From NCBI GenBank assembly GCA_965218285.1, contig OZ244616.1, positions 5,635,757 through 5,699,756 on the forward strand: a stretch of 64,000 bases of DNA, read 5' to 3'. The notes under the pieces were generated by a model. It did not search any database. It saw only the letters and a list, made by a program, of their open reading frames with translations, and had not been told where the DNA came from. Source of the DNA: Candidatus Poribacteria bacterium (GTDB lineage Bacteria > Poribacteria > WGA-4E > WGA-3G). Shown here one piece after another: positions 2 to 63,530 of this stretch. The number at the start of each line of letters is the position of its first letter. Within the stretch, counting starts at the first letter, position 1. Made by a program: the position numbers and the translations under genes.

Positions 2-1630
2 TATATTCTCAGAACAGGATTACCAACCATTGACAATTCTGACCTATATGTTGGGCAAATTCAACACAGTTACGGTATTGGAGATGGGCAACGGTTTACC
101 TACGGATTAGATGTGTTGCTCACTCGTCCGGATACTGAAGGCACGATTAATGGTGCTAATGAAGAAAACGACGACATCAACGAGATAGGCGTTTATTTGC
201 AGTCGGAAACCAATATCCTGCCACAGTTAAAGTTGCTTGCTGCAGGTAGAGCGGATAATCATAACCATCTCAACGATATTGTGCTATCACCGAGGGTCGC
301 ACTTGCGTTTCAACCAAACGATGACCATAACATCAGGGTAACCTATAACCGCGCTTTCAATACGCCAGGAACTTCAAACCTATTTCTTGATATTCTGTCA
401 AAAGAAAACCCATTTATGGTAGGAATCGATATACGGGCACAGGGTGTCCCCTCCGAAACGGGATTTACTTTTAAAAGAAGTGTAGATGGTCGACCAGAGT
501 TTCGATCCCCCTTCTCACCCTCAGGTGACAATTTCATCCCGCTTGATAGCCCCGCATTTACCGACGTCATGTGGAACGTTGCCAGAAGTGCTGTGATGAG
601 TGGCGCGAAACCGGTTTTTGAAGCGGGTTTAGCCGCACAAGGACTTCCTGCAGAGACCGTGGCAGCACTCTCCGCAGGATTTGAAAGTATTATCCCGCAA
701 CAAGTAGCAGGTGTGGAAAACGTTTTACGCGCACTTGATCCAGCAACATCAGGCTTTATTGACGTTGAAGATGTAAATGACGTTGACACGCTTAAGCCAA
801 CCATCACGCAGACTTATGAGGTTGGCTACAAGGGGATTATACTGAATAGATTGGTTTTTTCTGCTGATGTGTATCACTCAAGAATTAACAATTTCATCGC
901 TCCGTTGGCAGTCGAAACTCCTAATGTGTTCTTGGACGCTCCAACGTTAAGTGCTTCTCTCGGTCAGCAGATCGGAGCGGCATTAGCCGATCCGCAAAAC
1001 GCACAACTTGCGCAAGCACTGCTTGCGTTAGACGCACCTACTCAGGGTGGAAACGGCGATGGTTCGCCTATTGATGAGTTGGTAACGTTGTTCGTGGCAG
1101 GAACTGCAAACAACGGTGCTGCTTACATCCCATTTGGCACAGTGACACCCGAACAGGCAGCAGACCCAAACGCTGTCATGCTAACCTATCGCAACTACGG
1201 TGACATATCGCTCAACGGATTAGACCTGAATTTCACCTTTTTCCTCAATCCGAGTTGGAGTCTCGGTGCAAATTATTCGTTTGTCAGCAAAGACCTCTTT
1301 GAGAACGTTGATAGAATCGGTGACATTGCCCTAAATGCACCTAAAAACAAGTACGGTGCGAATGTTCAATACATTAACACGGGGCTTGGATTAGGAGTCG
1401 GACTCCGCGCGCGTTATGTGCAAGGATTTCCTGTCCGATCAGGGGTTTATGTCGGCGAAGTCGAATCGTATTGGACGGTTGATCTAACTGCAGGCTACGA
1501 TATTCCACTCGGTCCCAAGCCACGTCTTTCGGTGACTGTCCAAAATCTGCTGGATCGTAAACACCAACAATTTGTCGGAACACCCGAAATTGGTAGGTTG
1601 GCAATTGCACGTTTGACGCAAACTTTTTAA
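2..1630 (+). CDS. TonB-dependent outer-membrane receptor, C-terminal about 540 aa (5' end lies outside window)
   Basis: Frame is open from position 2 with no upstream stop. Sequence shows alternating amphipathic beta-strand character (e.g. RVTYNRAFNTPG, VGLRARYVQGF) and ends with a terminal aromatic residue (..ARLTQTF), as TBDR barrels do. Confidence 0.55.
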   Translation, partial: YILRTGLPTIDNSDLYVGQIQHSYGIGDGQRFTYGLDVLLTRPDTEGTINGANEENDDINEIGVYLQSETNILPQLKLLAAGRADNHNHLNDIVLSPRVALAFQPNDDHNIRVTYNRAFNTPGTSNLFLDILSKENPFMVGIDIRAQGVPSETGFTFKRSVDGRPEFRSPFSPSGDNFIPLDSPAFTDVMWNVARSAVMSGAKPVFEAGLAAQGLPAETVAALSAGFESIIPQQVAGVENVLRALDPATSGFIDVEDVNDVDTLKPTITQTYEVGYKGIILNRLVFSADVYHSRINNFIAPLAVETPNVFLDAPTLSASLGQQIGAALADPQNAQLAQALLALDAPTQGGNGDGSPIDELVTLFVAGTANNGAAYIPFGTVTPEQAADPNAVMLTYRNYGDISLNGLDLNFTFFLNPSWSLGANYSFVSKDLFENVDRIGDIALNAPKNKYGANVQYINTGLGLGVGLRARYVQGFPVRSGVYVGEVESYWTVDLTAGYDIPLGPKPRLSVTVQNLLDRKHQQFVGTPEIGRLAIARLTQTF

Positions 1631-1702
1631 CGCTCTTCCATCAAATCCCCATGCTTTAGCTTGTGGGATGTAGATGGCGCATGATGTGTGTGAAAAATAA
1701 AC

Positions 1703-1732
1703 TTGACAAACGCCCCGAAAATGTAGTATAAT
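1703..1732 (+). promoter_or_regulatory. consensus sigma70-type promoter inside element left end (TTGACA 1703-1708, 18-nt spacer, TATAAT 1727-1732)
   Basis: Read directly. The same hairpin-then-promoter arrangement recurs in every element of this family. Confidence 0.5.
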
Positions 1733-1899
1733 TATAGCAACTTGCTGGATAGGAATACTACCCTGCATACTTATGCAGGTCCTATCCTTACCAGTAGTAT
1801 GGTGTGTGGCAAGTTGCAAGTGAGACCTTGTCCAACATCTATTATTTCGGTGTCGTTCATGTAAGTCGCAAGCGGAGTAATAACCCCGCGCCTTGTATC

Positions 1900-2088
1900 G
1901 GCACCCCCATTTATTATTTTTTGCAGGCTGGGGTGCCCAGGACAAGAATGCCTGATAAAACCGATCTGATTCGGAATAATAGCCTGCTGGTGGAGCGATA
2001 ATAAGACGGTGGACTCTCTGAGAAAACCGCAGTTGCTACGAAGCCGAGGTCTCCCCTACCTTTAGGTAGTGGGTGGTATCACAATATA
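1900..2088 (+). ncRNA. putative TnpB-type omegaRNA (reRNA) scaffold. Boundaries approximate.
   Basis: Homologous to the region downstream of the tnpB remnant at 30420-30608. Ends in the RE hairpin cccctacctttaggtagtggg. Confidence 0.35.
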
Positions 2089-3025: not shown

Positions 3026-3074
3026 TTTTTCTCCTAAAGAATTAAATTACATCAGAATTTTTACACTCTTCCTG

Positions 3075-3468
3075 TCAAATCCCCATGCTTTAGCTTGTGG
3101 GATGTAGACGGCTAAAATCGTTATTTGTCAAAAAACCTTGACATTTTCACTGACACTTGATATACTCTTTTTAGCAGTCGGCATTGGTTCTGATTGATGC
3201 GGTGGTAGACCGCTTGGCAGTGAAACAATCAGGTAAAAGCCTTGCGATTCAATACTGCTAAAGTTCTTTGTAACATCTATTGCACGTTTAGGATAGCACG
3301 TTTGAAAAGACAGCATCCGCTTGAAAATCACGTGTCAAAATAATTAGTTGCCTTCGGGCAAGTGGCTGGCTTAGCAGCCACTGTGGAGCAGACATAAGAC
3401 GCTTCTTCGGAAACGCTGACTGCTACGAAGCACAAGCCCCAGCCTTTAGGCTGTGGGTACTATGACTA
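3075..3468 (+). mobile_element. ORF-less TnpB-family derivative (LE hairpin, promoter, omegaRNA-like RE)
   Basis: Hairpin ccccatgctttagcttgtggg at 3081-3101 plus atgtagacggc. TTGACA(3138-3143)-17-TATACT(3161-3166). 3' end ...agcctttaggctgtgggtactatgac parallels the other right ends. Confidence 0.45.
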
Positions 3469-3962
3469 AAGCCTTTGCCAGAAGGTTGCATATATGCCCG
3501 TACTAACTCTGGTGATGCACTCCCACACGTAAACGAGTGGGCTTCTTGAAGAAGATCCGCCTCCACAAGGCACAACGACGAACCCAAGTGACGTAGGAGA
3601 TATGCAACACCTACGGTACGCACCACAGATACGACTACAGGGAGAGTTTTGAGTGTGGAACTCCCTGATACGTTACCGCTCAATTAGCGAGTATAACGGA
3701 GACCCTAAAAGTCTCACTTGCGTTTAGGCGAAACAAAACTTTTGTTGTTTCGGTATCTAAATCGGGGTTTTCCCAGCAACAAGCAAAGTCCTCTATGCAA
3801 TTTGGATGGGGAGACACTTTCGTAAGGATACGAAAGATTGCATTGCCTCCCACTGCTTGATACTCCAATTATACCACATTTTTTTGTTTTGTGTCAACTT
3901 TTTTTTTGACTTTGGCACGGGCGTTACTGGGTTGGACCCACAGCTAAAGCAGTGGGATTGTT
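3469..3962 (-). mobile_element. probable minus-strand ORF-less TnpB-family derivative (LE hairpin at 3937-3956, promoter on minus strand)
   Basis: Hairpin cccacagctaaagcagtggg with flank attgttag. On the minus strand it is followed by TTGACA-17-TATAAT (plus-strand complements TGTCAA 3892-3897 and ATTATA 3869-3874). The same hairpin and flank occur at 53061 (+) and 62898 (-). Confidence 0.3.
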
Positions 3963-4589
3963 AGACAATGCCCTTCAGTAAAAGCACTTAATTATTAGGA
4001 TGGCGTCGCGTGGTTTGTTGATGAAGTTACGAACCTCGTTACAGGCAACAATCCAGCAAATGTCTACATGTTTATTTGAGATTTTACATTTTACTATAAA
4101 TCGGATCACTTCGTTATTTGAGCAAGTTTCGTGCCAATGTTTCTAAGAATGCGTAATATTGTGTCAGGAAAGATGAAATTCTATGCATATTTTTATCATC
4201 TGTCTTAAACATAGACTCAGACTAAGTTTATCAAGTGAGCGGATATCTTAATTTTTTCGAGAAAAATCACATTAGCGTTCGTTTTCCAACCTTTGCTTTT
4301 TATGGTGTGCAAAAATTGTGGTAGAGTCCTGCATAAATTGCTGCATTATAGTAAGGTCTATAATTATTTACATAATTTGACCTTTGGACAACTTCAAAAC
4401 ACGACTATAAATGTAAGAGGCGCAATGAATTGCGCGACTACAAACGCAGTAAACCCAAAGAAAAGTGTATAGGTATTTTTGGATTTCACTATAAGCAATT
4501 TTGGTAGTGGATATTTGGAAGAAATTTACCATTAGTAGCAGGCGAACGTAGTCATTATTGGAGTGGGTCGAACTGTCCTTATACTGGAC

Positions 4590-5466: not shown

Positions 5467-6594
5467 TTAGTTAAAGACAATAACGCCACGGGCATTTTCA
5501 CCGGCTTCCATATCCGCAAACGCCTCATTAATCTGATCAAGTTGATAATGTTTTGTGATCAGTTCATCTAACTTCAACTTCCCTTCCGTATATAGATTAA
5601 GAAGTTTCGGCATATCCACCCGGGGTTGACATGAACCGTAGAACGAACCGATTATCTGCCTTTCAGATGCGACGAAGTGTTGCGCTGGAATGCTGAATTC
5701 CATTTCATGGTGTGCCATTCCAACAATTACCGCAGTGCCAGCAGCGCGCACCATACGATATGCTTGAACGATAGTTTTCGGATTGCCGATGACTTCAAAA
5801 GCATAATCTACGCCGCGACCATCGGTTAATTCACGAACCGCTTCAATAGGATCACATTCAGCAGCGTTGACGACATCCGTAGCACCAAAACGTTTGGCAA
5901 AGTCAAGTTTTTTCTGAGCAATATCAACAGCGATAATCTTTTCTGCTTGTGCAAGCACAGCACCTTGAATGGCATTTAAACCTACACCGCCGGTTCCAAT
6001 AATCGCTACAGAACTACCGGGTTCCACCTTCGCTGTATTGAGAACTGCACCAACACCTGTTGTCACACCACATCCGACAAGCGCAGCTTGCGCTAACGAA
6101 TAATGATTATCTATTTTGACGAGGTTTTGTTGTGGCACGACCATATATTCCGACATCGTTGCAATCCGTGTCATCTGAAGGATACCCTCACCCGATTTGT
6201 TATATAAGCGATAAGTGCCATCTAATTGAAACCCGCGAGGTACATCGTAACTTTCGCAAAGGCAGACTTTCTCCATCTGACACATGTGGCAATCACCGCA
6301 ATATGTGACGAAGGATAGAATTACATGGTCACCCGGTTGGAAATCTGCTACATCCTCACCTACACGTTCAATTATACCTGCGCCTTCGTGTCCGAGTACG
6401 ACAGCAGCATCGTAGTAGATAGCACCCGTAACGACCGATAGATCAGAGTGGCACACACCACTTGCAGCAGTACGGACAAGGACTTCATTGGCTTTCGGTT
6501 CTTCTAAGTCCAGTTCCTCAACAACCACAGGTTGATTATGTTCATACATAACAGCGGCGCGTGTTTTCATCACTCTTCGGACTGGAGACCCCAT
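5467..6594 (-). CDS. zinc-dependent alcohol dehydrogenase family oxidoreductase. True start probably MKTRAAV near 6570.
   Basis: GHEGAGIIERVGEDV zinc-ADH signature, structural-zinc cysteines (CGDCHMC), GTGGVGL Rossmann motif. The first 8 codons of the listed ORF are supplied by an IS-derived repeat. Confidence 0.75.
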   Translation of the reverse strand: MGSPVRRVMKTRAAVMYEHNQPVVVEELDLEEPKANEVLVRTAASGVCHSDLSVVTGAIYYDAAVVLGHEGAGIIERVGEDVADFQPGDHVILSFVTYCGDCHMCQMEKVCLCESYDVPRGFQLDGTYRLYNKSGEGILQMTRIATMSEYMVVPQQNLVKIDNHYSLAQAALVGCGVTTGVGAVLNTAKVEPGSSVAIIGTGGVGLNAIQGAVLAQAEKIIAVDIAQKKLDFAKRFGATDVVNAAECDPIEAVRELTDGRGVDYAFEVIGNPKTIVQAYRMVRAAGTAVIVGMAHHEMEFSIPAQHFVASERQIIGSFYGSCQPRVDMPKLLNLYTEGKLKLDELITKHYQLDQINEAFADMEAGENARGVIVFN

Positions 6595-6908
6595 CCTTTA
6601 GGTTGGGGAGGAAAGCCCGCTCCTTTTATTTTTGGTATTAGGAGTTTAGTTTCCAATCAAATATAACTGAAAACTAAATCCCTAATATGCACAAACATAA
6701 GTTTGCGTTCTCCCTTTCGGGGTGTCTGTTGCCCCATCCAGATCACAGTATCCGAGAGGAATCGGACTTGGGGAGCATCCGAAACATCGTGCTGGCTACC
6801 ACGCCAAGATACTGCGATATTTTACTGTAGTCAACGGTTTAACTTGTGAAGTGGACGCTCGGATTGCGCTTTGCACAAGCCCCATGCTTTAGCTTGGGGT
6901 TATTGACC
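6568..6908 (-). mobile_element. ORF-less IsrB-type element: RE repeat (6568-6624) plus omegaRNA module (about 6715-6908), with no isrB gene
   Basis: 6568-6624 matches 14918-14973 (catcactcttcgg.ctggagaccccatcctttaggttggggaggaaagcccgctcc). 6722-6908 aligns almost base-for-base with 16000-16190, the region between the IsrB start codon and the LE terminus ...ccccatgctttagcttggggttattgac. Confidence 0.55.
6715..6908 (-). ncRNA. orphan IscB/IsrB-type omegaRNA scaffold copy
   Basis: Near-identity to the 5' UTR module of the intact isrB at 15977-16190. Confidence 0.4.
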
Positions 6909-6963: not shown

Positions 6964-8055
6964 TTATACGGTTTGCAAGTTACTCATAGATAGTAACCAG
7001 GGTTCATCTACCAAAGCACGCAGGAATATCCCGCGTGCGCCATTCAAGTCTCTGTTCATCTTGAGTCCTGTGCTATCTTTGATTATCTTTCGTCCGCCGA
7101 GTGATTTTCTAATCTCACCATTCCAAGAAACTGTTTTTGATGTGTATGCTTCACAGACATCAACTACAATACATCCAGTTTCTTCTGCTTTATGTTTTAG
7201 AAATTGTTTGAATCTGTAGTGAGATAGTGTCAACATTTGTCTTGCAGACTTTTTTCGTAGTTTGCGTTTTCCACGCATCACCATATCTGAAGTCTCAAAT
7301 GTGGGGAGCAAGATAATATCAAAGTTATCAACAAGGTATCGTGCAACTTTATGGTGCAATTCATCAACAAGATTTCTGATACGTGTGCGTATTCTGTTTG
7401 CAGCACGTCTCATATTCTTGCGTGATTGTTGAGTCGCTTTTGTTGCATGGGATAAAAGATTATCAAGGTGTGAACAAAGTCTTTGAATCCGATTAATAGC
7501 ATGGTGTCCAAGCCATCCGAAACCACGCTCATGAAAATATGTGAGGAATGTTCTCACGCCAAGGTCTAAAGCAACAACACGTCCGTTTGACTTTCGCTTC
7601 GGAGTTGTCACAGTATAAGATACACATAGATAGTATTTATCATTCTCTTTTACCAGTCGGGAGTCACAGATATTATCAGGTAACATCTCTGACATCTTTA
7701 GCTCACCAAGTAAGGTATGATAGACACCGCGTGGTTTTATAGCAGACTTTGGAATGAAAATACTATCTGATGGATGACGTTTAGACTTGAAAGAAACAGA
7801 TTGAAACTCACCTGTTTTCTTACATTTTCGCTTTGCTTCTCTGACAGCAATAGACTTTATCTGATACGGAGTTTCTTTGCTCCAATCAGGTAGATCGTGA
7901 AGAATGCCTGTTTTTATCGCTTTCCAATTTGCTTTTGTGTCTGTTTCGTTCAACAAAGCAACGGTTTTATCGAGTTTCGGTGTCAAAACCCAATGCTTTA
8001 GCTTTGGGATGTAGACACCGCCCTCTTGTATTAGACCAAAACTTTTTCTTGACAT
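6964..8055 (-). CDS. tnpB: TnpB-like RuvC-fold nuclease (IS200/IS605/IS607 accessory protein). N-terminus probably disrupted; the annotated first ~25 codons run through another element's left end.
   Basis: RuvC-I VVALDLGVRTF, RuvC-II LLPTFETSDM, C-terminal ..CEAYTSKT..NRDLNGARGIF (RuvC-III D.N.A..I motif) with a degenerate zinc finger. The -35 box of an opposite-strand promoter overlaps the annotated ATG. Confidence 0.65.
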   Translation of the reverse strand: MSRKSFGLIQEGGVYIPKLKHWVLTPKLDKTVALLNETDTKANWKAIKTGILHDLPDWSKETPYQIKSIAVREAKRKCKKTGEFQSVSFKSKRHPSDSIFIPKSAIKPRGVYHTLLGELKMSEMLPDNICDSRLVKENDKYYLCVSYTVTTPKRKSNGRVVALDLGVRTFLTYFHERGFGWLGHHAINRIQRLCSHLDNLLSHATKATQQSRKNMRRAANRIRTRIRNLVDELHHKVARYLVDNFDIILLPTFETSDMVMRGKRKLRKKSARQMLTLSHYRFKQFLKHKAEETGCIVVDVCEAYTSKTVSWNGEIRKSLGGRKIIKDSTGLKMNRDLNGARGIFLRALVDEPWLLSMSNLQTV

Positions 8056-8411
8056 AAAACACGATTCTTGCTATAATCTCTTTTCGTAACTCCACGGGTT
8101 GTGAGCAGGCGTTCTGGGTGCTACATACCGAGTGAACTCACGTAAAGTTGCGACACAAGCGGTAGAAGTCTTTGACACCAGATAGTTGCTGATGGAAGCT
8201 TAGAGTGTAATGGGAAAGAGTGGTAGGACACCATCCCGAAAACAGCACTCTCAAAAATGTTCATAAGACACCTTCGGGTGTGCAGGCGGGGCATCGTCTG
8301 TTGGAGTAGAGGGTGTTAGACTTGCTTAGCAAGCAACCCTTGTTGATACCACAATCTACACAGCAGGTGGGACAAAAGAACCCCACTGCTTTAGCTGTGG
8401 GAGTATGTCAG
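7983..8411 (+). mobile_element. plus-strand ORF-less TnpB-family derivative lying between the tnpB body and its N-terminal fragment
   Basis: LE hairpin cccaatgctttagctttggg (7995-8014) plus atgtagacacc. TTGACA(8049-8054)-17-TATAAT(8072-8077). RE hairpin ccccactgctttagctgtggg (8388-8408) plus agtatgtcag, as at 63502-63530. Confidence 0.4.
8049..8077 (+). promoter_or_regulatory. consensus sigma70 promoter (TTGACA-17-TATAAT) on the plus strand
   Basis: Read directly. Confidence 0.45.
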
Positions 8412-8530
8412 TGTAAGTGAAACGTGCAGTGCCCAACCACTGCCGAAGTGTTTCACGTTGTTCTGTTGTCGGATAGACTCTTATCTTCTTTGATTTTGTC
8501 ACGGTAACTTCTGAGCCCGTGCATCCGGCA
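8356..8530 (-). pseudogene. tnpB: tnpB N-terminal fragment (..KKIRVYPTTEQRETLRQWLGTARFTYTD..) directly downstream of tnpA. Same frame as the 6964-8055 body, but separated from it by about 300 bp containing a stop.
   Basis: Canonical TnpB N-terminus pattern (Y.FRLYPT.EQ...L....G.ARFVYN). The listed ORF 8356-8967 ends inside hairpin 8388-8408. Confidence 0.45.
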
Positions 8531-9040
8531 ACTGAAGACATGCAAGATTGCGAGAAGATCCGCTGTGAGTTCTTCTTGTGGACTGTGTTCTGTTTTGTCC
8601 AAAACCACGAGTTCGCCACCGTTTTGTTCAATAAGGTATCGTATAAGGTCGATACCGAAGCGGGCGAGTCTATCCCAATGGGCAATAACAACTTGGAGCT
8701 TATCACCTCGCATAAGCCGTTCCAATAAGGTTCTAAGACCTTTTCTTTTGAAGTTGATACCACTTCCGATGTCTCTGATAACTGCTGCGTCGGGGTAGAT
8801 GCTTCGCATATACGCAACTTGTCGTTCAAGGTCATCTCTTTGCTTTGTGCTGGATACTCTGCAGTAGCAAACAGTTGTAATTGATTTGGATTTGCTTTTG
8901 ATGTATCCTTCAACATCATAGCGTCTGTGTCCGCCTCCTGTGCGGATAATATCAATCTTTCCTTCATTTGCTAACTTCCTTAAATGGTCGGGTGTATAAT
9001 CCAGCAGTTCACTTGCTTTACGGGCTGATACATAAGTCAT
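8453..9040 (-). CDS. tnpA: IS607-family serine recombinase TnpA (MerR-like HTH plus resolvase catalytic domain)
   Basis: N-terminal HTH (ASELLDYTPDHLRKLANEGKI). Catalytic-serine motif YCRVSSTKQ. tnpB starts overlapping its 3' end, as in IS607. Confidence 0.75.
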   Translation of the reverse strand: MTYVSARKASELLDYTPDHLRKLANEGKIDIIRTGGGHRRYDVEGYIKSKSKSITTVCYCRVSSTKQRDDLERQVAYMRSIYPDAAVIRDIGSGINFKRKGLRTLLERLMRGDKLQVVIAHWDRLARFGIDLIRYLIEQNGGELVVLDKTEHSPQEELTADLLAILHVFSCRMHGLRSYRDKIKEDKSLSDNRTT

Positions 9041-10095: not shown

Positions 10096-10320
10096 CATTC
10101 ATCACTCTTCGGGCTGGAGACCTTATCCTTTAGGTTGGGGAGGAAAGCCCGCCTCCTTTTGTTAATAAGTGCAGGTGATTTAATCTTGCACCTGCTACGA
10201 GATGTCTGTGTTGGGTATCGCCCAGACGACGCGACCTGTAGTCAACTGTTTAACTTGTGGAGTGGACGCTTGGTATGCGCTTCGCACAAGCCCCATGCTT
10301 TAGTTTGGGGTTATTGACTC
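10096..10320 (-). mobile_element. truncated ORF-less IsrB-type element (RE repeat plus about 85 nt of the omegaRNA 5' region plus LE terminus)
   Basis: 10096-10150 matches the RE repeat. 10237-10318 matches 16105-16190 (ctgtagt.caac.gtttaacttgtggagtg.acgcttggtatgcgcttcgcacaagccccatgctttag.ttggggttattgac). Confidence 0.5.
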
Positions 10321-10740
10321 TAATCCTTCTAACGCCTTTTGAATAATTTCACTATGATCAAAGGCAAGTTGTGGCAAGCCTGATGTTGAAAACCATGCAA
10401 CTTCCGAGGCATCGGAGCCCGCTACGGTTTTCTGTTGTTCCGATTTAATGATTCCAACGTAGGCGACGGTGATAACACGTCCACGTGGATCACGGTCAGG
10501 ATGTCCAAATGTCCCTATCTGTGTCAATTGCACTTCAGATATACCTGTTTCCTCATGCAACTCGCGAAGAGCACTCTCCTTAAGAGTTTCATCCATTTCC
10601 AGAAACCCACCTGGCAATGCCCACAAGTCTTTGAAAGGTGGATTCTTACGACGAATTAATAAGACTTGTGGATGCAGTGCATCCATCAATAGTACAACAT
10701 CAACAGTAACTGAGGGACGTGGATAATCATAACAATACAC
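10300..10740 (-). CDS. NUDIX hydrolase
   Basis: Nudix box GG.LE..E....A..REL.EETGI (ALPGGFLEMDETLKESALRELHEETGI). The last 5 codons and the stop are supplied by the terminus of the adjacent IS-derived element. Confidence 0.75.
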   Translation of the reverse strand: MYCYDYPRPSVTVDVVLLMDALHPQVLLIRRKNPPFKDLWALPGGFLEMDETLKESALRELHEETGISEVQLTQIGTFGHPDRDPRGRVITVAYVGIIKSEQQKTVAGSDASEVAWFSTSGLPQLAFDHSEIIQKALEGLESITPN

Positions 10741-14597: not shown

Positions 14598-14947
14598 ATA
14601 AAACGCACTTACTTTTTACATGAGCCTGATTTTTTACTATAGACTTATTATTCTTCGGCACACAACGTATGCATGCTAATCGTTATAGAAAACCCACAAT
14701 CATTCTTATGATGTGGTAGATGCCGAATTCTAAAAGCGTATCTGCTGTTAATTCACCACGCGTTTCCCTACCGAATAATCTATTCGTGTAACGTTTCTTC
14801 AAAGACTTCAAGGTTTTGTGCCTGAGCTGCATCGAGGAGCAGCTGTTCCAGGCGTTGCAAATCTTCTATGTTTTGAAGTGCCGGTGTTAAGGCATTCACG
14901 GCTTCTACATGGAATTTCATCACTCTTCGGGCTGGAGACCCCATCCT

Positions 14948-15976
14948 TTAGGTTGGGGAGGAAAGCCCGCTCCTATAGTTAAAATTCAGACGCGTAAGAA
15001 CTTTGAAATCCTGTCGTTTCGCGCCTGTGGTGATTCGTTTCCCATCCAAACTGTAGATAGAAAACAAACCTTTTGCGTTAATACCTGAAAGTCTTGTTAA
15101 TCCGTGTTTGACATGCTTCACCAAAGTGTTCTTGACCAAGCCTTGTGCTAATATGGTGCCACCATATCGCGAACGAATGCCGTTCTTTTGTGGGTTCTGC
15201 CGATGAAGTTCACGTCTTGAAACAGGTATCGGTGCGATGCAGAATATATCTGTGTTGTCGGGGACATCCACCCCACCGACAGTGTGATATGCCAAACACC
15301 AACTATCTACACAGTGTGCATCAAACGTCTCTGTGAGTTTCTTGAAAGACTTCTTGAGTCCAAGTCTATCTCGAAGTTCTTTCGTCTCCCAACCTTGAAG
15401 TGTGAACAATGTCCATCGCTTTTGTATCTCACTATAGAACCAAGACTTTCCGACTTCAAGAGGACTGAAAGAACTATTCCACTTTTTCGCACGTTTGATA
15501 GTCCTTGCTCTAATATCCTCTACACAGACATGTGTGACAGGATACATATTAGACAACCAATCCAAAATACGCAGTTTCCAATCCCATCTCGCACGCGTGC
15601 CAGCCGGTATCCTTTCTTTATTAGCAGGGTGCCGATTAGTTCGGTTCTTTCGGTTTGGACACGAACGACTCCGACGGGTTCTCCGAAGTTCGCGACGCTT
15701 TTCTATTTTTTTACCCACTTTGCTATGTGCATCAGTTTGAACATTCAAATACGTGTGTGCCTCAGACTTCACCGTGAACCCTTCTTTCTTGCTGCCAGGG
15801 TCTACACCTACAGCAATCTCTTGTTTGTATTCTGTTGTTTCGTAGTTTAATCGAATACAGAAGATACCATTATTCCAATACGGGGTCGCCTTACCACTTT
15901 TGATAAGGTGCCTCGCAACTGGCGGAGAAGTGGGCATCAGTTGTTCACCATCCTTAGATTTCACTGGAACGAACAT
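14948..15976 (-). CDS. isrB: IsrB: RNA-guided RuvC nuclease/nickase of the IscB family lacking the HNH insert (342 aa)
   Basis: N-terminal PLMP domain (KSKDGEQLMPTSPPVARHLIKSGKA). RuvC-I AVGVDPGSKKEGFTV. Arg-rich bridge helix KRRELRRTRRSRS. RuvC-II CVEDIRARTIKRA. RuvC-III DAHCVDSWCLAY. No HNH/Cys4 segment. Size typical of IsrB. Confidence 0.7.
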   Translation of the reverse strand: MFVPVKSKDGEQLMPTSPPVARHLIKSGKATPYWNNGIFCIRLNYETTEYKQEIAVGVDPGSKKEGFTVKSEAHTYLNVQTDAHSKVGKKIEKRRELRRTRRSRSCPNRKNRTNRHPANKERIPAGTRARWDWKLRILDWLSNMYPVTHVCVEDIRARTIKRAKKWNSSFSPLEVGKSWFYSEIQKRWTLFTLQGWETKELRDRLGLKKSFKKLTETFDAHCVDSWCLAYHTVGGVDVPDNTDIFCIAPIPVSRRELHRQNPQKNGIRSRYGGTILAQGLVKNTLVKHVKHGLTRLSGINAKGLFSIYSLDGKRITTGAKRQDFKVLTRLNFNYRSGLSSPT

Positions 15977-16190
15977 GTCGTTAGAACTCCTTTTCAGGGT
16001 ATGTGTTTCCCCATCCAGATCACAGTATCCGAGAGGGATCGGACTTGGGGGGCATCCGAAACATCGTGCTGGCTACCACGCCAAGATACCACGATATATT
16101 ACTGTAGTACAACGGTTTAACTTGTGGAGTGAACGCTTGGTATGCGCTTCGCACAAGCCCCATGCTTTAGCTTGGGGTTATTGACCTTCA
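15977..16190 (-). ncRNA. IsrB omegaRNA (5' of isrB, same strand). Guide segment expected immediately beyond 16190.
   Basis: About 215-nt conserved structured module between the LE terminus and the start codon. Copied without the ORF at 6715-6908, 10237-10320 and 30635-30800. Confidence 0.5.
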
Positions 16191-29644: not shown

Positions 29645-29884
29645 CGGTAGCGAAACCATAGGCGTCAATTTAAGGAAAGAACTCGTTTGTAGTCGCGCAC
29701 TTCATAGTGCCTCGGACATTCAAAGAAAAGAGGCGCTATGAATTGCGCGACTACGAACGCTGATATTCTCGTCCTTTGCGTTATTTGAGATGTTGATACA
29801 AAAAGGTGCGGTTAGGAAACCGCACCTACCGGGTTGGGAACCGCTAAATTGACGCTTATGGTGCGGTTAGGAAACCGCACCTAC
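29645..29884. mobile_element. MITE of the ggtgcggtt-palindrome TIR family (type 2 interior with a 29-bp-stem hairpin). Left TIR truncated.
   Basis: Shares ataggcgtcaatttaaggaaagaactcgtttgtagtcgcgca...gaggcgctatgaattgcgcgactacgaacgctgatattctcgtcctttgcg with the units at 45412-46524. Right end has two copies of ggtgcggttaggaaaccgcacc. Confidence 0.5.
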
Positions 29885-29939
29885 CAGGTGTGTTCATATA
29901 TTAATTTTGGCTATATATTATTAACGTGTGTGACAAAAT

Positions 29940-30040: not shown

Positions 30041-30243
30041 TTGATCTTTACTTTAACGATCTTCCGTCAAATCCCCATGCTTTAGCTTGCGGGATGTAGA
30101 TGGCAACCTTTGGTTTACTTCGTGAAAAAAGATTTGACTTTTTTCTAAAGATGTTGTATGATTAGAGTATCAAGTTGACAGGCATTTTCAGCGTAGTCGC
30201 AAGACTATGTGCCTGTCTTACCCACTGAAAAGGGGTTAAGTGC

Positions 30244-30474
30244 TTGATACTTGAGACATCGTCCATGAAAACCTATAAATATGAGTTTTCTCATCAATCT
30301 AACTTGATACAGATTGGCAATCTGATAGACGATGGACATAGCGTACATGTCCATTTATTGCGTCTACAACCGCTTTCAGACCGATATTGGACATGTCCAG
30401 AATGCAGCACACACCACGATAGAGACGTAAATGCTGCCATAAACATTTTGCAGGCTGGGGTGCCCGTGTCTTGA
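30244..30474 (+). pseudogene. tnpB: internally deleted tnpB (76 codons: N-terminal segment fused to the zinc-finger/RuvC-III C-terminus)
   Basis: [21 protein letters not shown] is a canonical TnpB C-terminus. The RuvC-I/II regions are absent. Confidence 0.6.
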
Positions 30475-30608
30475 TGCACGATAAAACTGCTCTGATGCAG
30501 AATAATAGCCTGCTGGTGGAGTGATAATAAGACGGTTGACTCTTTGAGAAAACCGCAGTCGCTATGAAACCTAAGCCCCTACCTTTAGGTAGTGGGTGGC
30601 ATCACAAT
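30440..30608 (+). ncRNA. putative TnpB-type omegaRNA (reRNA). Boundaries approximate.
   Basis: Overlaps the tnpB 3' end and runs to the RE hairpin cccctacctttaggtagtggg, as in characterised IS605/IS1341 TnpB systems. Duplicated at 1920-2088. Confidence 0.4.
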
Positions 30609-30634
30609 TAGAATATGATATAATTACCACTAAA

Positions 30635-31052
30635 GTCAATAACCCCGCGCTAAAGCATCGGGGCTTGTGCGAAGCGCATGCCAAGCGTCCACTCCACAAG
30701 TTAAACGGTTGACTAGACGATATATCGCGGGTCTTGTCGTGGCAGGAAACCACAAGATGTTACGGATGCTCCCCAAGTCTGTATCCGCTCTGATCCCGTG
30801 ATGTCGATGGGGAAACATATACCGCGAGAGCGTGGGCTTATAGCCATTATTTTCTGGTAAAGACATCGTGTCAGGTCAAGTAAGCGAGTAGTGACAGTCT
30901 CACTGAACGAAGCAGCACAACTGAATCCAGACTCCCAGTGTGCAGGTGGAGATAAAACAGCACTCCCCCTTTTGGGGACAAATTATAACTATAATAGGAG
31001 CGGGCTTTCCTCCCCTGCCTAAAGGCGAGGGGTCTCCAGCCCGAAGATTTTG
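30635..31052 (+). mobile_element. ORF-less IsrB-type element in plus orientation (LE/omegaRNA module at 30635-30800, RE repeat at about 30995-31052)
   Basis: Reverse complement of 30635-30800 aligns to 16020-16190. Reverse complement of 30997-31048 matches the RE repeat (ggagcgggctttcctcccc..cctaaagg..ggggtctccagcccgaag). Confidence 0.5.
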
Positions 31053-32348: not shown

Positions 32349-32441
32349 CTTAACCTACAGTGTATATAAGAGGCGCAATGAATTGCGCGACTACAAACCT
32401 ACAGTGTATATAAGAGGCGCAATGAATTGCGCGACTACAAA
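32349..32441. repeat. tandem duplication (2 x 44 bp) of ctacagtgtatataagaggcgcaatgaattgcgcgactacaaac. Contains one arm of the 29-nt MITE hairpin.
   Basis: Read directly. The same arm occurs singly at 4416-4445 and 5423-5450, and as hairpin pairs at 29690-29760 and throughout 45412-46524. Confidence 0.5.
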
Positions 32442-32550
32442 CGCGCCTCTTTTCAAGTCAACATTCCATGAAAATCGGGCGGACAAAGCCTTCCTACCAT
32501 TTTTGCTTCGGCAAAGTCAATATGCGAAAACCGACAGATAGAGTTATGAA

Positions 32551-41536: not shown

Positions 41537-41928
41537 GTGCGGTTAGGAAACCGCACCATTGGCGTCAATTTAAGAAAAGTCTGTATTTTTTTGAACACCC
41601 CTCAATAAGCATGATTATTGAGACTGTCCCATATTTAGTCCCGTAGGGACGATATGTTTATAGTACACCGTCCAGACACGTCTCTTTAGCTCCGTCCGAG
41701 CGACATATCCCGATTGGTAACCCATTGCTATAAACATTCCGCCCCTACGGGGCTGAAGAGATTGGGGTTACCACGTTTTCTATAAACATATCGTCCCTAC
41801 GGGACTAAAGAGGGTTTCTCATATTTGAAAAACCGCTAAATTGACGCCAATGGTGCGGTTAGGAAACCGCACCTACCGGGTTGGGGACCGCTAAATTGAC
41901 GCTAATGGTGCGGTTAGGAAACCGCACC
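41537..41928. mobile_element. MITE of the ggtgcggtt-palindrome TIR family (type 1 interior with nested 28-bp inverted repeats tagtcccgtagggacgatatgtttatag)
   Basis: TIRs ggtgcggttaggaaaccgcaccattggcgtcaatttaag at 41537 and the reverse complement cttaaattgacgccaatggtgcggttaggaaaccgcacc at about 41835-41874, plus an extra TIR copy to 41928. Near-identical copy at 51162-51499. Confidence 0.55.
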
Positions 41929-46524: not shown

Positions 46525-46599
46525 ACGAAGCGTCCAAGTAATTCTAAAATCTACTATAGGTCGAACTCACGTTGGGTAAGCATCTCCGTTACATTTTCA

Positions 46600-47163
46600 T
46601 GACGGCTCCCAAAGCTAAAGCATTGGGTTTCCTTTAGTTCCTTCTCCGTTCTGAACTTTGGAAGGTGGGCATCTTTTGCATATTGTGATATGCTTCTGGG
46701 CTTTTACCGAGTGTTCGTCTGGTTTTTCAGCTGATAGAAAACTCGCCCATCGACTTGATAAACCTCAGCAATGTTGAGGTGGCACCCGCCAGCGGTGCGA
46801 CTACAGGGTCCTTGCTAAGCCCCAATTGAGCAACCCTGATACTTTGGTTCTTTAGCGTTCCGTTTAGTTCGCGGTTGTGGAGGGTTCTCCTACACAATCT
46901 CTAAAATGCGAATGCAGAACTCATCACAAACGAATGAAGGATCATAACCTTCGACGTATAGTCCGAATGTGGTATTGTTGGATTTACCAACACCAACTCT
47001 GTCCAAACAATTGGATTGGATAGGACACCTACGGGAAGTAGGCGATTGCTTTCCTATCCAGTTGGTAGAAATATAATACCACATTTCTTGAAATAAATCA
47101 AGGTTTTTTTGATAAATTGAGACGTTAGCGGTGTTTCATCCCAAAGCTAAAGCATTGGGCTTT
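46600..47163 (-). mobile_element. minus-strand ORF-less TnpB-family derivative (RE-type hairpin 46608-46627, LE hairpin 47138-47157 with minus-strand promoter)
   Basis: Both hairpins are cccaaagctaaagcattggg, the complement of the 7995-8014 LE hairpin. On the minus strand the 47-kb copy is followed by atgaaacacc and TTGATT-17-TATTAT. The 46.6-kb copy is followed by gagcc, an RE-style flank. Confidence 0.4.
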
Positions 47164-47221
47164 CACACCGAACGTTTGGTAATCTCTCTGATTCTCACAT
47201 TGTCACATTGTCAAAAGCGGT

Positions 47222-48999: not shown

Positions 49000-49001
49000 T
49001 T

Positions 49002-51130: not shown

Positions 51131-51161
51131 TATGTTAATGTAGGATTGTAAAGTACCGGTA

Positions 51162-52682: not shown

Positions 52683-52689
52683 GGATTGT

Positions 52690-53088
52690 TGACATCTCCC
52701 ACACCTTGAGGAGTGGGATTCTTAGGTCTTATATCAGTCCTTAATGTTTCTGAATGCCTTGTTCTTGCTTCTGCATCCACTGCTCCGTAGTTGAGTCTAA
52801 CACGGACTCCACAGGCGTTTAGACTCTCCCAGTGTCCCCAGGCGAGTTATTAGTGAATGTGGTAGGGATGTTGTAGTAACAACATATATTAAGTGTTCTC
52901 TACCACATTCTAATGTTTTGAGTGATTTCGCACCAGCACCACATACCTTATCACGGATGGGGACAGGACTCAACACAGGTAAGTGTTGAGGTGATAACCC
53001 TGTCCAACGATGCTACATATAGTATATACTATTTCGGTGCAAATGTCAAGCGTTTTTTGACCCACAGTTAAAGCAGTGGGATTATTAG
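52690..53088 (-). mobile_element. probable minus-strand ORF-less TnpB-family derivative bounded by two cccac..gtggg att.ttag hairpins (52698-52717, 53061-53080), with a minus-strand TTGACA-17-TATACT promoter (plus-strand complements 53044-53049 and 53021-53026)
   Basis: Hairpin-plus-promoter arrangement identical to 3937-3956/3869-3897. Hairpin family shared with 62898. Confidence 0.35.
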
Positions 53089-53330
53089 TTAATTCCCTTC
53101 AGTCCACGGCAATTAGATTCACGAATGTCCTAAAAAATGTGATGTGCATCAATTTCTTGCTTCTTGTAAAACTATCATATTTTATCTGAAATGTCAAGGT
53201 AAAAAAATATTACTTGCTTTCTCTTTTTCCTTGACAAACCTTTAATTTAATGATATAATAAATTGTTAAACTTGATACAATAGATATAATGATACAATAG
53301 ATATAATGACCTTCAGCGAAGGGCAGAAAT

Positions 53331-62659: not shown

Positions 62660-62897
62660 TCTGTCTTGTAGAGGAAGGTAAGATATAGTCGTAGGTACGG
62701 TTTCTGTGTCGAAACAGTTGAAGGCAATATATCAAAAAATAATGGATATATTTTCTATAGTATGTTATACTAAGCAATCAGAACTGTCAAGGTGAAAATC
62801 AGGGTGATCTGTTTTTAGCTTTTGCTAATATTAAGCGCGTGTTTCCGACACAATTCGCTCCTGCCTTTCCAGTATTTTGAAGTGAGTACTTAACAAT

Positions 62898-63530
62898 CCC
62901 ACTGCTTTAGTTGTGGGTCAAAAAAGTGTTTAAAGTTCTTGTTTTATATATGCAATTATGTTGGACTAATTAGACCGTTCAGTAGTCCGTGCTGATACAC
63001 GGACTATGCCTTATCGGAGGGAACGGAATCCTGTCAGAACGGTATATCATAATGTTCAAAACACACAAGATAGCGTTAAATCCAAATAAAAAGCAACGTG
63101 CGTGGTTTGCTCAACAATGCATCTATGATTGGTATTGAAACACTGAAAATAACGAACATGCTAAAGAACAGGAAATTAGCAAAAGCGTTATCTGATAGTG
63201 CGTTAGGTGGGTTTCTCACTAAACTCAAATGCAAAGCGGAAACGCTTGGTATTCCAGTTATTGAGGCACCACAATTCTTTGCGTCAAGCAAGACGTGCAG
63301 CAGTTGTGGACATAAGAAAACAGAGTTATCATTGGCAGAACGGCAATACAATTGTGATGTGTGTCAATACACAGAAGATCGTGATGTTAACGCTGCCAGA
63401 AATCTAAAACAACTCGCCGCGGGATACGCGGAGAGTCTAAACGCTTGTGGAGTCTAAGTCAGACCTCCACAAGAGGAGGCATCGGATGAAGAAGCAAGAA
63501 GCCCACGACTTTAGTCGTGGGAGTATCACA
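62898..63530 (+). mobile_element. TnpB-family element with disrupted tnpB: LE hairpin 62898-62917 (-35 box mutated), N-terminal tnpB fragment, fused C-terminal fragment, omegaRNA-like RE with hairpin 63502-63521
   Basis: MFKTHKIALNPNKKQRAWFAQQC (63052-) is a TnpB N-terminus that hits a stop after 28 codons. 63098-63457 ends ..CSSCGHKK....YNCDVCQY.EDRDVNAARN (zinc finger plus RuvC-III). RE flank gtgggagtatcac. Confidence 0.5.
63052..63457 (+). pseudogene. tnpB: tnpB pseudogene (N-terminal and C-terminal pieces in different frames, RuvC-I/II missing)
   Basis: See above. Confidence 0.5.

What the first reader, a model, noticed from the sequence alone, without database searches (positions are those of the whole stretch)
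1647..1667. One subterminal hairpin architecture shared by all IS200/IS605-type elements here, present more than 20 times
The motif is 5'-CCC(A/C)N-x-(G/C)C-T(T/A)A(A/G)-(G/C)(C/G)-x-N(T/G)GGG-3'. It has a 5-bp stem, one mismatched pair (A.A or T.T), a 2-bp stem and a 4-nt loop.

It occurs at 1647, 3081, 3937, 6880, 7995, 8388, 10291, 14945 (as ccccaacctaaaggatgggg), 16162, 30073, 30650, 46608, 47138, 52698, 53061, 62898, 63502 and elsewhere.

Imperfect hairpins with an extrahelical or mismatched base are what Y1 (HUH) TnpA transposases of IS200/IS605 recognise. No tnpA is present in this window. Both the TnpB-type and the IsrB-type elements carry the same hairpin, which implies a single trans-acting TnpA (or a related mechanism) mobilises both classes.

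One frame through the hairpin reads P-(Q/K)-L-K-(Q/H)-W, which lets it sit silently inside ORFs (e.g. 8388-8408, 7995-8014).
Basis: partly seen in the sequence, partly recalled or inferred. Interest (0 to 1): 0.55.

Follow-up and report, generated by a model that had tools for sequence, protein, structure and literature searches.

The report
Shared end hairpins of IS200/IS605 transposons
The repeated 20-base hairpin is real and marks both ends of twelve small IS200/IS605-type mobile elements (one carries an IsrB gene, one a TnpB fragment, ten carry no gene) in a sponge-symbiont (Poribacteria-like) genome, which is a new example of an arrangement already described in other bacteria.

Summary
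The window has 24 copies of the hairpin CCCnn-T-SS-TTTA-SS-T-nnGGG; 15 fit the strictest definition against 0.13 expected by chance. All 24 fall into 12 pairs, each pair on one strand and bounding an element of 216-1265 bp. Four elements are IsrB-type: one full copy and three without the gene that keep all or part of the omega-RNA region. Eight are TnpB-type with no intact gene.

A closely related strain (96-98% identical) has empty sites. These show exact insertion without duplication, next to a 4-base target (TCAT or TTAA on the hairpin strand).

The hairpin strand matches the tnpB strand but is opposite to isrB. That puts the guide-RNA end of both classes at the same transposon right end.

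No Y1 TnpA is in the window. A metagenome contig does carry tnpA-tnpB between ends 87-92% identical to two window elements.

This matches published work (Kapitonov et al. 2016; Meers et al. 2023): shared hairpin ends, and TnpA acting in trans on IscB/IsrB, TnpB and gene-less elements.

Those two copies are the ends of a 444-bp element that splits an IS607-type tnpB.

Verdict: real, well explained, new members of a known kind.

The parts
1631..2082 (+). Element 1. TnpB-type, no gene, A-type ends. Left-end hairpin 1647-1667, right-end hairpin 2053-2073. Target TTAA at 1627-1630.
   Evidence: The right-end junction GGTATCAC|AATATAAAG and the TTAA target are confirmed against empty strain L120. 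A 12/12 sigma-70 promoter at 1703-1732 reads inward. Ends are 83-91% identical to those of the tnpA-tnpB element in L125.
3064..3466 (+). Element 2. TnpB-type, no gene, A-type left end. Left-end hairpin 3081-3101, right-end hairpin 3437-3457.
   Evidence: Promoter 3138-3166 scores 11/12. The interval is absent from L120, where the methyltransferase and FGE genes lie 2 nt apart. Boundaries are accurate to about 2 nt.
3512..3974 (-). Element 3. TnpB-type, no gene, D-type. Left-end hairpin 3937-3956, right-end hairpin 3522-3541. Lies tail-to-tail with element 2.
   Evidence: A 12/12 promoter at 3897-3868 on the minus strand reads inward. Boundaries are inferred from the consensus CTGA|AGGG...ATCAC|.
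6571..6907 (+). Element 4 (m1). IsrB-type, no gene; keeps about 200 nt of the omega-RNA region (6710-6907, transcribed on the minus strand). TnpA-defined left-end hairpin 6589-6608, right-end hairpin 6880-6899. Target TCAT at 6567-6570.
   Evidence: Weak HEARO hit at 6697-6907 on the minus strand.
7969..8412 (+). Element 5. A 444-bp TnpB-type element with no gene, inserted in the IS607-type tnpB. Left-end hairpin 7989-8008, right-end hairpin 8382-8401. Boundaries are ambiguous by 1 nt.
   Evidence: Removing 444 nt restores a 366-aa TnpB ORF with HTH, OrfB_IS605 and TNB domains.
10103..10318 (+). Element 6 (m2). IsrB-type, internally deleted (216 bp). Left-end hairpin 10121-10140 (decayed, CCTTAT...), right-end hairpin 10291-10310.
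   Evidence: It occupies the site where L001 has a full IsrB element (itself carrying a ~660-nt internal insertion) and L120 is empty.
14921..16185 (+). Element 7. Full IsrB element (1265 bp). The coordinates are on the hairpin (top) strand; isrB and its omega RNA are on the minus strand. Left-end hairpin 14939-14958, right-end hairpin 16158-16177. Target TCAT at 14917-14920.
   Evidence: Exact ends are inferred from the homologous L001 copy compared with empty L120.
14948..15976 (-). isrB ORF, 342 aa, RRXRR domain and no HNH domain. Its TAA stop codon lies in the loop of the 14939-14958 hairpin.
   Evidence: Pfam RRXRR 3.7e-30 with no HNH hit. ORF list.
15977..16185 (-). Predicted IsrB omega-RNA scaffold. 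It starts GUCAAUAA followed by the hairpin CCCCAAGCUAAAGCAUGGGG. The guide would be the flank just upstream (16186 onward).
   Evidence: Weak HEARO RF02033 hit from model position 1: 28.4 bits against a gathering score of 83. The HEARO consensus begins GUCAacuaCCCCcgcccUaAAggAgGGGG.
30057..30605 (+). Element 8. TnpB-type, no gene, A-type. Left-end hairpin 30073-30093, right-end hairpin 30576-30596. Target TTAA at 30053-30056.
   Evidence: The left end is 92% and the right-end region 87% identical to the tnpA-tnpB element in L125.
30635..31052 (-). Element 9 (m3). IsrB-type, no gene; its omega-RNA region is on the plus strand. Right-end hairpin 30643-30663, left-end hairpin 31012-31032. Both hairpins carry compensatory stem changes.
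46598..47179 (-). Element 10. TnpB-type, no gene. Right-end hairpin 46608-46627, left-end hairpin 47140-47159. Boundaries are approximate (about 5 nt).
   Evidence: It is 85% identical over about 590 nt to a copy in Ca. Poribacteria OZ250160.1 (L040).
52688..53098 (-). Element 11. TnpB-type, no gene, D-type. Right-end hairpin 52698-52717 (loop CTCA on the top strand), left-end hairpin 53061-53080.
   Evidence: A homologous copy sits at L001 15797-16193.
62881..63529 (+). Element 12. TnpB-type, D-type, with a TnpB C-terminal remnant (zinc finger plus ...DRDVNAARNL...) on the plus strand. Left-end hairpin 62898-62917, right-end hairpin 63502-63521.
   Evidence: The remnant was read directly from the sequence shown.

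Best explanation
The hairpins are the subterminal imperfect palindromes at the left and right ends of one clade of IS200/IS605-family transposons. These transposons move as single-stranded DNA ('peel and paste').

On the strand where the loop reads TTTA (the top strand), each element is laid out as follows:
- a 4-nt target (TCAT for the IsrB-type, TTAA or TTTA for the A-type TnpB-type, NTGA for the D-type);
- 16-20 nt of left end;
- the left-end hairpin;
- the cargo;
- the right-end hairpin;
- an 8-10 nt tail ending ...TGAC or ...TCAC.

A Y1 (HUH) TnpA dimer would bind the two folded hairpins on the top strand and cut at the two boundaries. It would rejoin the flanks and insert the excised circle 3' of another copy of the target. 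Most elements here carry no gene and none carries tnpA, so TnpA must act in trans.

The cargo is an RNA-guided nuclease module. In the TnpB-type, tnpB and its omega RNA run on the top strand and end at the right end. In the IsrB-type, the gene and omega RNA are on the bottom strand, so the omega RNA begins at the same right end. In both classes the guide is the DNA flanking the right end. This is what lets the nuclease recut an emptied donor site (target plus right flank) and restore the element by recombination.

The right-end hairpin therefore has two roles: a TnpA binding site in DNA and the first or last stem of the omega RNA.

What is shown: the paired architecture, stem covariation, exact target-specific insertion without duplication, the orientation rule, and the existence of a tnpA-tnpB element with the same ends.

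What is inferred: TnpA binding and cleavage, action in trans in this genome, and omega-RNA function.
For: 1. All 24 hairpins form 12 same-strand pairs bounding elements of 216-1265 bp. None stands alone.

2. The stems covary. The top strands fold into the hairpin as single-stranded DNA.

3. Filled-versus-empty sites:
- L120 reads GCAAGCGG|ATGAATGG. L001 reads GCAAGCAG|GTCAATAA...GAAGAGTG|ATGAGTGG. The insertion is exact, with no duplication and target N|ATGA (TCAT| on the top strand).
- The right-end junction and TTAA target of element 1 are also confirmed.
- All four window IsrB-type copies are preceded by TCAT.

4. The asymmetry is typical of the family: 16-20 nt outside the left-end hairpin and 8-10 nt outside the right-end hairpin.

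5. Orientation rule. In 23 of 23 outside loci with tnpB, the TTTA hairpin is on the tnpB strand. In 2 of 2 with isrB it is on the opposite strand. The same holds in the window for element 12 and element 7.

6. Y1 TnpA next to the same hairpin:
- It occurs in 9 genome loci, for example Alicyclobacillus L084 with hairpin-tnpA-tnpB-hairpin.
- It occurs in metagenome loci L125 and L126. L125 reads TTTAA|left end-tnpA (PF01797, 7e-41)-tnpB-right end. Its ends are 87-92% identical to window element 8 (83-91% to element 1).
- The tnpB of L125 is 86% nt identical to a tnpB-only copy in a Ca. Poribacteria chromosome.

7. The IsrB-type right end matches the 5' end of Rfam HEARO, whose consensus starts with this hairpin.

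8. Published precedent covers every step.
Against: No Y1 tnpA was found in the 64-kb window, in L001, L002 or L120, or in 28 Poribacteria 8-kb blocks. I could not scan the genome itself. A protein search for TnpA was swamped by 8000 unrelated homologues.

Rfam HEARO hits are far below the gathering score: 25-30 bits against 83. No Rfam family matched the TnpB-type elements.

Two of the three junction comparisons also involve deletions next to the element, so those sites are not simple insertions.

Seventy-seven of the 117 genome blocks hit by the pattern could not be tied to a transposon context with my quick screens. About 70 chance matches were expected for a complete scan of that collection.
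Confidence: 0.88

Rival explanations
1. The hairpins are REP-like intergenic palindromes. They would be scattered singly or in clusters between genes and handled, if at all, by a RAYT-type enzyme. They would not be transposon ends.
For: They are short G+C-rich palindromes, numerous, mostly intergenic, and no transposase lies nearby.
Against: Every copy is paired with a second copy on the same strand 170-1220 nt away. Each pair encloses omega-RNA or nuclease remnants and an inward-reading promoter. One pair sits inside a gene. Whole elements are present or absent between strains, with exact ends. The window does hold other, truly REP-like hairpin families (GGTGCGGTTAGGAAACCGCACC and CGCGCAATTCATTGCGCC), and these are unrelated in sequence.
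Confidence: 0.03
2. The hairpin is conserved only as an RNA element: a stem of the omega RNA, or a transcription terminator. It would have no role in DNA transposition.
For: The IsrB-type right-end hairpin aligns with the first stem of the HEARO consensus. The TnpB-type right-end hairpin lies at or just after the end of tnpB, where the omega RNA is encoded.
Against: The left-end hairpins lie outside any omega RNA. In TnpB-type elements they are upstream of the promoter. In IsrB elements they are beyond the isrB stop. The two classes would transcribe the hairpin in opposite senses (UUUA versus UAAA loop, U.U versus A.A mismatch), yet the DNA top-strand form is the same in both. The same hairpin lies upstream of tnpA in autonomous elements.
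Confidence: 0.05
3. The elements are relics. The ends are IS200/IS605 ends, but the lineage has lost TnpA. The copies now persist or spread only by recombination and nuclease-driven homing, not by transposition.
For: No tnpA was found in about 330 kb of Poribacteria-type sequence examined. Many copies have lost their gene or are internally deleted or decayed, for example 10121 CCTTAT.... Strain differences at one hot spot look like recombination among copies.
Against: Three strains 96-98% identical differ by clean insertions at fixed targets. A tnpA-tnpB copy with near-identical ends exists in metagenome contigs L125 and L126, and the tnpB of L125 is 86% identical to a Poribacteria chromosomal copy.
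Confidence: 0.12

Closest known systems
ISC1 (IsrB) and IS605B (TnpB-only) transposons with shared termini (Kapitonov, Makarova and Koonin 2016, PMC4810608), for example ISC1-1_MA and IS605B-1_MA of Microcystis aeruginosa
   Same: These are non-autonomous elements with subterminal imperfect hairpins at both ends. The ISC termini are 5'-GTCA... and the target is N|ATGA with no duplication. TnpB is encoded antisense relative to the ISC gene. Mobilisation in trans by a Y1 transposase is predicted. The window's IsrB element reads GTCAATAA...GAAGAGTG|ATGA.
   Different: The host is different (Poribacteria-like, not a cyanobacterium). The 3' terminus is ...TG rather than ...CG. Most copies here have lost the gene. 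The TnpB-type subfamilies use other targets (TTAA or NTGA).
ISGst1-5 of Geobacillus stearothermophilus (Meers et al. 2023, doi 10.1101/2023.03.14.532601)
   Same: One TnpA excises several families that encode TnpB or IscB, plus gene-less PATE-like elements. All have similar hairpin ends. The iscB omega RNA is bounded by the right end. The guide flanks the right end, so the nuclease recuts the donor joint.
   Different: That system was tested by experiment and its tnpA is known in the same genome. Here nothing is tested and tnpA is seen only in related metagenome contigs. The cargo here is IsrB (no HNH domain) rather than IscB.
IS608 (Helicobacter pylori) and ISDra2 (Deinococcus radiodurans), the mechanistic models for the family
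   Same: Both have top-strand subterminal hairpins with an unpaired or mismatched T. The left cleavage site is farther from its hairpin than the right one. Both insert 3' of a 4-5 nt target (TTAC, TTGAT) without duplication. (From my own knowledge of the family.)
   Different: The hairpin sequence and targets differ. I could not derive the pairing rule between target and internal guide bases for these elements.
Rfam RF02033 HEARO (the omega RNA of IscB/IsrB)
   Same: The consensus begins GUCAacuaCCCCcgcccUaAAggAgGGGG. That is the same GUCA start and the same hairpin as the window's IsrB-type right end. All four window copies align from model position 1.
   Different: Scores of 25-30 bits are far below the gathering score of 83. 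The rest of the scaffold is divergent or deleted.
PATEs (palindrome-associated transposable elements)
   Same: These are short elements without ORFs that share both ends with IS200/IS605 or IS1341 elements and often keep the omega RNA.
   Different: None in kind. These are further examples.

Membership tests
IS200/IS605 family transposon ends (Y1 TnpA, single-strand transposition) | Imperfect subterminal hairpins at both ends, both on the same strand, with no terminal inverted repeats | tested here: met
   Twelve of 12 elements. Covariation. Single-stranded DNA folds.
IS200/IS605 family transposon ends (Y1 TnpA, single-strand transposition) | Insertion 3' of a fixed 4-5 nt target, no target-site duplication, exact ends | tested here: met
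   Empty L120 against filled L001 for the IsrB element. Right-end junction and TTAA target for window element 1. TCAT precedes all four IsrB-type left ends.
IS200/IS605 family transposon ends (Y1 TnpA, single-strand transposition) | Asymmetric ends: the left cleavage site is farther from its hairpin than the right one | tested here: met
   16-20 nt against 8-10 nt.
IS200/IS605 family transposon ends (Y1 TnpA, single-strand transposition) | A Y1 HUH transposase (PF01797) in the element or elsewhere in the same genome | tested here: inconclusive
   None in the window, in L001, L002 or L120, or in 28 Poribacteria blocks. Present with near-identical ends in metagenome loci L125 and L126 and with the same hairpin in 9 loci of other phyla. 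The whole genome could not be scanned.
IS200/IS605 family transposon ends (Y1 TnpA, single-strand transposition) | TnpA binds the hairpins and cleaves the top strand | not testable with these tools
   Needs biochemistry or an excision assay.
ISC1 / IsrB transposon | RuvC-type RRXRR protein without an HNH domain, with a structured RNA upstream that abuts a transposon end | tested here: met
   Pfam finds RRXRR only, in a 342-aa protein. A conserved 200-nt upstream region is shared by four copies.
Rfam RF02033 HEARO | Score at or above the family's gathering threshold (83 bits) | tested here: not met
   25.6-30.5 bits and nothing at the gathering score. Only the 5' module (GUCA, hairpin, P1 stem) clearly matches.
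PATE (gene-less IS200/IS605 derivative) | No ORF; both ends shared with a gene-carrying element | tested here: met
   m1, m2 and m3 against the full IsrB copy. Elements 1 and 8 against the L125 tnpA-tnpB element and against L044 and L101 tnpB copies.
REP / RAYT system | Short palindromes that stand alone or in clusters in intergenic DNA and do not bound a longer conserved element | tested here: not met
   No solitary copies. All are paired around elements, and one pair lies inside a gene.
IS607 family | Serine recombinase TnpA, with ends lacking hairpins | tested here: not met
   The hairpin elements lack a serine recombinase. The one IS607-type unit (8453-9040 plus the split tnpB) contains hairpins only because element 5 is inserted in it and element 4 abuts it.

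The most novel reading that the evidence does not exclude
This genome may truly lack a Y1 TnpA even though closely related strains differ by clean, target-specific insertions. The elements would then be moved by a transposase supplied from outside the chromosome, or from another member of the sponge community. Alternatively they spread by nuclease-driven homing alone.

A related reading concerns the deletions that run from an element's right end exactly to the next copy of its target (window m2 against L120). These may be a so-far undescribed TnpA side reaction that erodes host genes next to these elements.
Probability: 0.1. Interest if true: 0.6.

Novelty: new member of a known kind. Interest (0 to 1): 0.25.

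Why it matters
The result annotates about 6.5 kb of this window that would otherwise be unexplained 'intergenic' DNA. It also explains two spurious ORFs and a split tnpB.

It gives exact ends and targets for three subfamilies of guide-RNA transposons in a sponge-symbiont lineage that appears rich in them (12 elements in 64 kb).

It offers a clean natural illustration of one point. TnpB and IsrB cargoes are mounted in opposite orientation on the same transposon chassis, so both guides read out of the right end.

It does not change current understanding. The shared ends, trans mobilisation, gene-less derivatives and right-end-linked guides are all published.

Tried and rejected
- Rfam at gathering thresholds found nothing. 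At permissive thresholds only weak HEARO hits were relevant. The ncS025, miRNA and other hits fall on unrelated repeats and look like chance.
- Exact-protein look-ups for three window genes, and for the 100%-identical hit P0001, found no contig. I could not fetch the window's own genome. The route through an 85%-identical homologue (P0003) gave the useful empty-site strain L120.
The search saturated at 8000 candidates and listed only Clostridia-like proteins.
- I tried to read off the pairing between the target and the bases 5' of each hairpin, as known for IS608. No consistent rule emerged, and I do not trust my memory of the IS608 right-end rule, so I make no claim.
One caveat: the unspliced ORF matches the Pfam HTH profile ten positions further than the spliced one (40.9 against 36.1 bits). 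I take this as chance. The unspliced frame stops 15 codons after the hairpin, and the same right-end sequence occurs in elements 3 and 12 outside any tnpB 5' region.
- The built-in repeat finder was swamped by coding tandem repeats. A self-BLAST did the job instead.

Full report
**Observation.** A strict structural scan required CCC...GGG, five outer pairs and two inner pairs. It finds 15 copies against 0.13 expected from Markov shuffles. A scan that also allows a one-base bulge finds 24 distinct copies, plus one poor hit at 42543 that looks like chance. I then chose copies only by the 12 bases of the motif held fixed in that scan. Their four variable stem pairs are Watson-Crick in 29 of 32 cells, G-T in 2 and unpaired in 1, with at least two pair types at each position. 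The stem is therefore selected. The top strands fold into the hairpin as single-stranded DNA.

**What the window contains.** Pfam scans of all ORFs of 150 aa or more find very few transposon genes:
- one IsrB (RRXRR domain, no HNH; 14948-15976, minus strand);
- one serine recombinase (8453-9040, minus strand);
- a TnpB split into an HTH piece and a 363-aa piece (6964-8055, minus strand).

There is no Y1 transposase. A tblastn search with two Y1 TnpA proteins also finds none. So most hairpins are not next to any gene.

**Anatomy.** A self-BLAST and direct reading show that the 24 hairpins form 12 pairs. Each pair lies on one strand and bounds an element of 216-1265 bp.

Four elements are IsrB-type. 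One is the full copy (14921-16185). Three lack the gene (6571-6907, 10103-10318, 30635-31052) but keep both ends and all or part of the 200-nt region upstream of isrB.

Eight are TnpB-type:
- 1631-2082
- 3064-3466
- 3512-3974
- 7969-8412
- 30057-30605
- about 46598-47179
- 52688-53098
- 62881-63529

None has an intact gene. Element 12 (62881-63529) keeps a TnpB C-terminal remnant (zinc finger and DRDVNAARNL).

On the strand where the loop reads TTTA, each TnpB-type element has this layout: 16-20 nt, the left hairpin, a near-perfect sigma-70 promoter reading inward, the body, the right hairpin, and an 8-10 nt tail ending TCAC or similar. The promoters are 12/12 at 1703-1732 and at 3897-3868, and 11/12 at 3138-3166.

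**Orientation.** In TnpB-type elements the TTTA strand is the tnpB strand. In IsrB-type elements it is the opposite strand. The start of the IsrB omega RNA (GTCAATAA plus hairpin) is therefore the end with the short 8-nt tail, which is the transposase-defined right end. The end beyond the isrB stop codon is the left end, with an 18-nt lead. The isrB stop codon TAA lies in the loop of that left-end hairpin.

The rule holds outside the window. Among loci fetched with the pattern CCCMNTGCTTTAGCTNKGGG, 23 of 23 with tnpB have the hairpin on the tnpB strand. Two of 2 with isrB have it on the opposite strand.

**Link to the omega RNA.** At permissive thresholds all four IsrB-type right ends hit Rfam HEARO, the IscB/IsrB omega RNA. 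The hits start at model position 1 but score only 25-30 bits against a gathering score of 83. The HEARO consensus itself starts GUCAacuaCCCCcgcccUaAAggAgGGGG, which is this hairpin.

**Host.** The isrB product is encoded identically on a 6.18-Mb circular metagenome-assembled contig (L001), which is 97-98% identical to the window. The nearest genomes in the species collection are Candidatus Poribacteria, at 85-87% identity over shared elements.

**Mobility and exact ends.** A homologue of the window's FGE-sulfatase led to L120, a strain 96-98% identical to the window whose genes are tightly packed. It supplies empty sites.

- At rhaM, L120 reads GCAAGCGG|ATGAATGG. L001 reads GCAAGCAG|GTCAATAA...GAAGAGTG|ATGAGTGG. 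The IsrB element is therefore exactly GTCAATAA...GAAGAGTG. It is inserted without duplication in front of ATGA, which is TCAT| on the hairpin strand. All four window IsrB-type copies are preceded by TCAT.
- The right junction of window element 1 (GGTATCAC|AATATAAAG) and its TTAA target are both present in L120, as ...TTC TTAA|AATATAAAG.
- Elements 2 and 3 lie in an interval that is 2 nt long in L120.
- Element 5 sits inside the IS607-type tnpB. Deleting 444 nt joins the two pieces into one 366-aa ORF with HTH, OrfB_IS605 and TNB domains.

**The transposase.** The same hairpin lies 55-140 nt upstream of Y1 tnpA genes, or just downstream of the tnpB that follows them, in nine loci from Firmicutes, Deinococcus, Endozoicomonas and others.

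A scan of metagenome contigs with the A-type left-end pattern gave 19 loci, two of them with tnpA. L125 reads TTTAA|left end, tnpA (PF01797, 7e-41), tnpB, right end.
- Its left-end hairpin is identical to window 30073.
- Its ends are 87-92% identical to window element 8 and 83-91% identical to element 1.
- Its tnpB and right end are 86% nt identical to a tnpB-only copy in a Ca. Poribacteria chromosome.

So an autonomous relative of the window's A-type elements exists. Whether the window's own genome has one is unknown. I could not scan it, and a protein search for TnpA saturated.

**Mechanism.** The best account is the standard one for this family. Y1 TnpA binds the two top-strand hairpins and cuts at the target|left-end and right-end|flank boundaries. 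It rejoins the flanks and inserts the excised single-stranded circle 3' of another target. TnpB or IsrB, loaded with an omega RNA whose guide is the right-end flank, recuts the emptied site so that recombination restores the element.

The hairpin's common constraint must act on DNA, for three reasons:
- the two classes would transcribe it in opposite senses;
- the left-end copies lie outside the omega RNA;
- the hairpin precedes tnpA in autonomous copies.

The architecture, covariation, exact target-specific insertion, orientation rule and existence of a cognate tnpA-tnpB element are shown. Binding, cleavage, action in trans and RNA function are inferred.

**Comparison with what is known.** Kapitonov, Makarova and Koonin (2016) described ISC (IscB/IsrB) and TnpB-only IS605B transposons that share termini. 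Their description matches this window on each point:
- TnpB is antisense to the ISC gene;
- the termini are 5'-GTCA... and the target is N|ATGA;
- mobilisation in trans is predicted.

Meers et al. (2023) showed by experiment that one Geobacillus TnpA excises several TnpB and IscB families. They also described gene-less PATE-like elements with similar ends, predicted to be mobilised in trans, and found that the iscB omega RNA is bounded by the right end. The window fits these descriptions point for point. It adds a new host lineage and new subfamilies, not a new principle.

The 'silent coding' idea fails. The copies at 7989 and 8382 are the two ends of an insertion, and the ORFs reading through them are artefacts. 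'All IS200/IS605-type elements here' also overstates the gene content: one isrB, one tnpB fragment and ten gene-less elements. The only near-complete tnpB is IS607-type and has no hairpin ends of its own.

**Verdict.** The feature is real and correctly recognised in its essentials. It is explained by a known mechanism. I rate it a new member of a known kind, with interest 0.25.

Noticed in passing
window 10098-10330 compared with L120 830-1180 and L001 15740-18330: The right end of window element m2 is joined to TCTAATCC. In the empty strain that sequence lies directly 3' of a second TCAT (the reverse complement of the NUDIX stop region ATGA), about 290 nt away. The deletion therefore runs from the right end exactly to the next copy of the element's target. 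A TnpA right-end strand transfer to a nearby target would produce this. It removed the 5' part of rhaM.
   Followed up: partly
L001 15797-16193; window 1620-1631 compared with L120 6639-6730: There are two more deletions next to elements. The D-type element in L001 is inserted after the NUDIX stop ATGA| and lacks 128 nt of host DNA on its right side. Next to window element 1, 88 nt on the 5' side of the TTAA target, including a likely terminator hairpin, are missing relative to L120. Which state is ancestral is not established.
   Followed up: partly
window 3466/3512 and 30605/30635: Two pairs of elements lie tail to tail, right end facing right end, 45 and 29 nt apart. The 29-nt spacer 30606-30634 would serve as guide for both the TnpB-type and the IsrB-type omega RNA. 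A third such pair is in L001 (16193/16348). This could be chance at this element density.
   Followed up: no
window 6964-9040, minus strand: An IS607-type unit: a serine recombinase (Resolvase plus MerR-type HTH, 8453-9040) followed by a tnpB that is split by element 5. At the same position between the 305-aa gene and the ADH gene, strain L120 has an AP_endonuc_2 gene and strain L001 has other repeats. This is a rearrangement hot spot.
   Followed up: partly
window 29655-29885, 41830-41960, 45412-46530, 51156-51200: An unrelated repeat family built around the hairpin GGTGCGGTTAGGAAACCGCACC. It includes tandem arrays of 169- and 236-nt units. It gives a weak, probably meaningless Rfam hit to ncS025 (37.6 bits against a gathering score of 46). 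It looks more REP- or MITE-like than the hairpin studied here.
   Followed up: no
window 4409-4450, 32352-32444, and within the 45460-46307 array: A second unrelated palindrome family, CGCGCAATTCATTGCGCC, about 38-47 nt per copy. It is also present in L120.
   Followed up: no
window 38996-39747: A tandem array of 18.7 copies of a 40-nt unit (CGCTGAGGCACGGGGACCTTGCGCTACACTTTTTTGACTG, 95% matches), starting about 30 nt upstream of the WD40-repeat gene (36779-38962, minus strand). There are no spacers, so it is not a CRISPR array.
   Followed up: no
window 41537-41860 and 51163-51487; 48993-49350: A 325-nt dispersed repeat (92% identical, also present in L001 and L120) and a 179-nt near-exact tandem duplication. 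Their nature is unknown.
   Followed up: no
window 16412-25378 and 25497-28205, minus strand: A 2988-aa ORF built from 318- and 369-nt repeats; its copy number differs between strains (2776 aa in L001). A 902-aa ORF with a 36-nt coding repeat at 27118-27716. Both are probably surface proteins.
   Followed up: no
Genome-contig scan, loci L003-L119: The exact hairpin core is spread across many phyla: Bacillota, Bacteroidota, Chloroflexota, Pseudomonadota, Halobacteriota, Methanolobus and Woesearchaeota. About a quarter of the hit blocks come from Candidatus Poribacteria chromosomes.
   Followed up: partly
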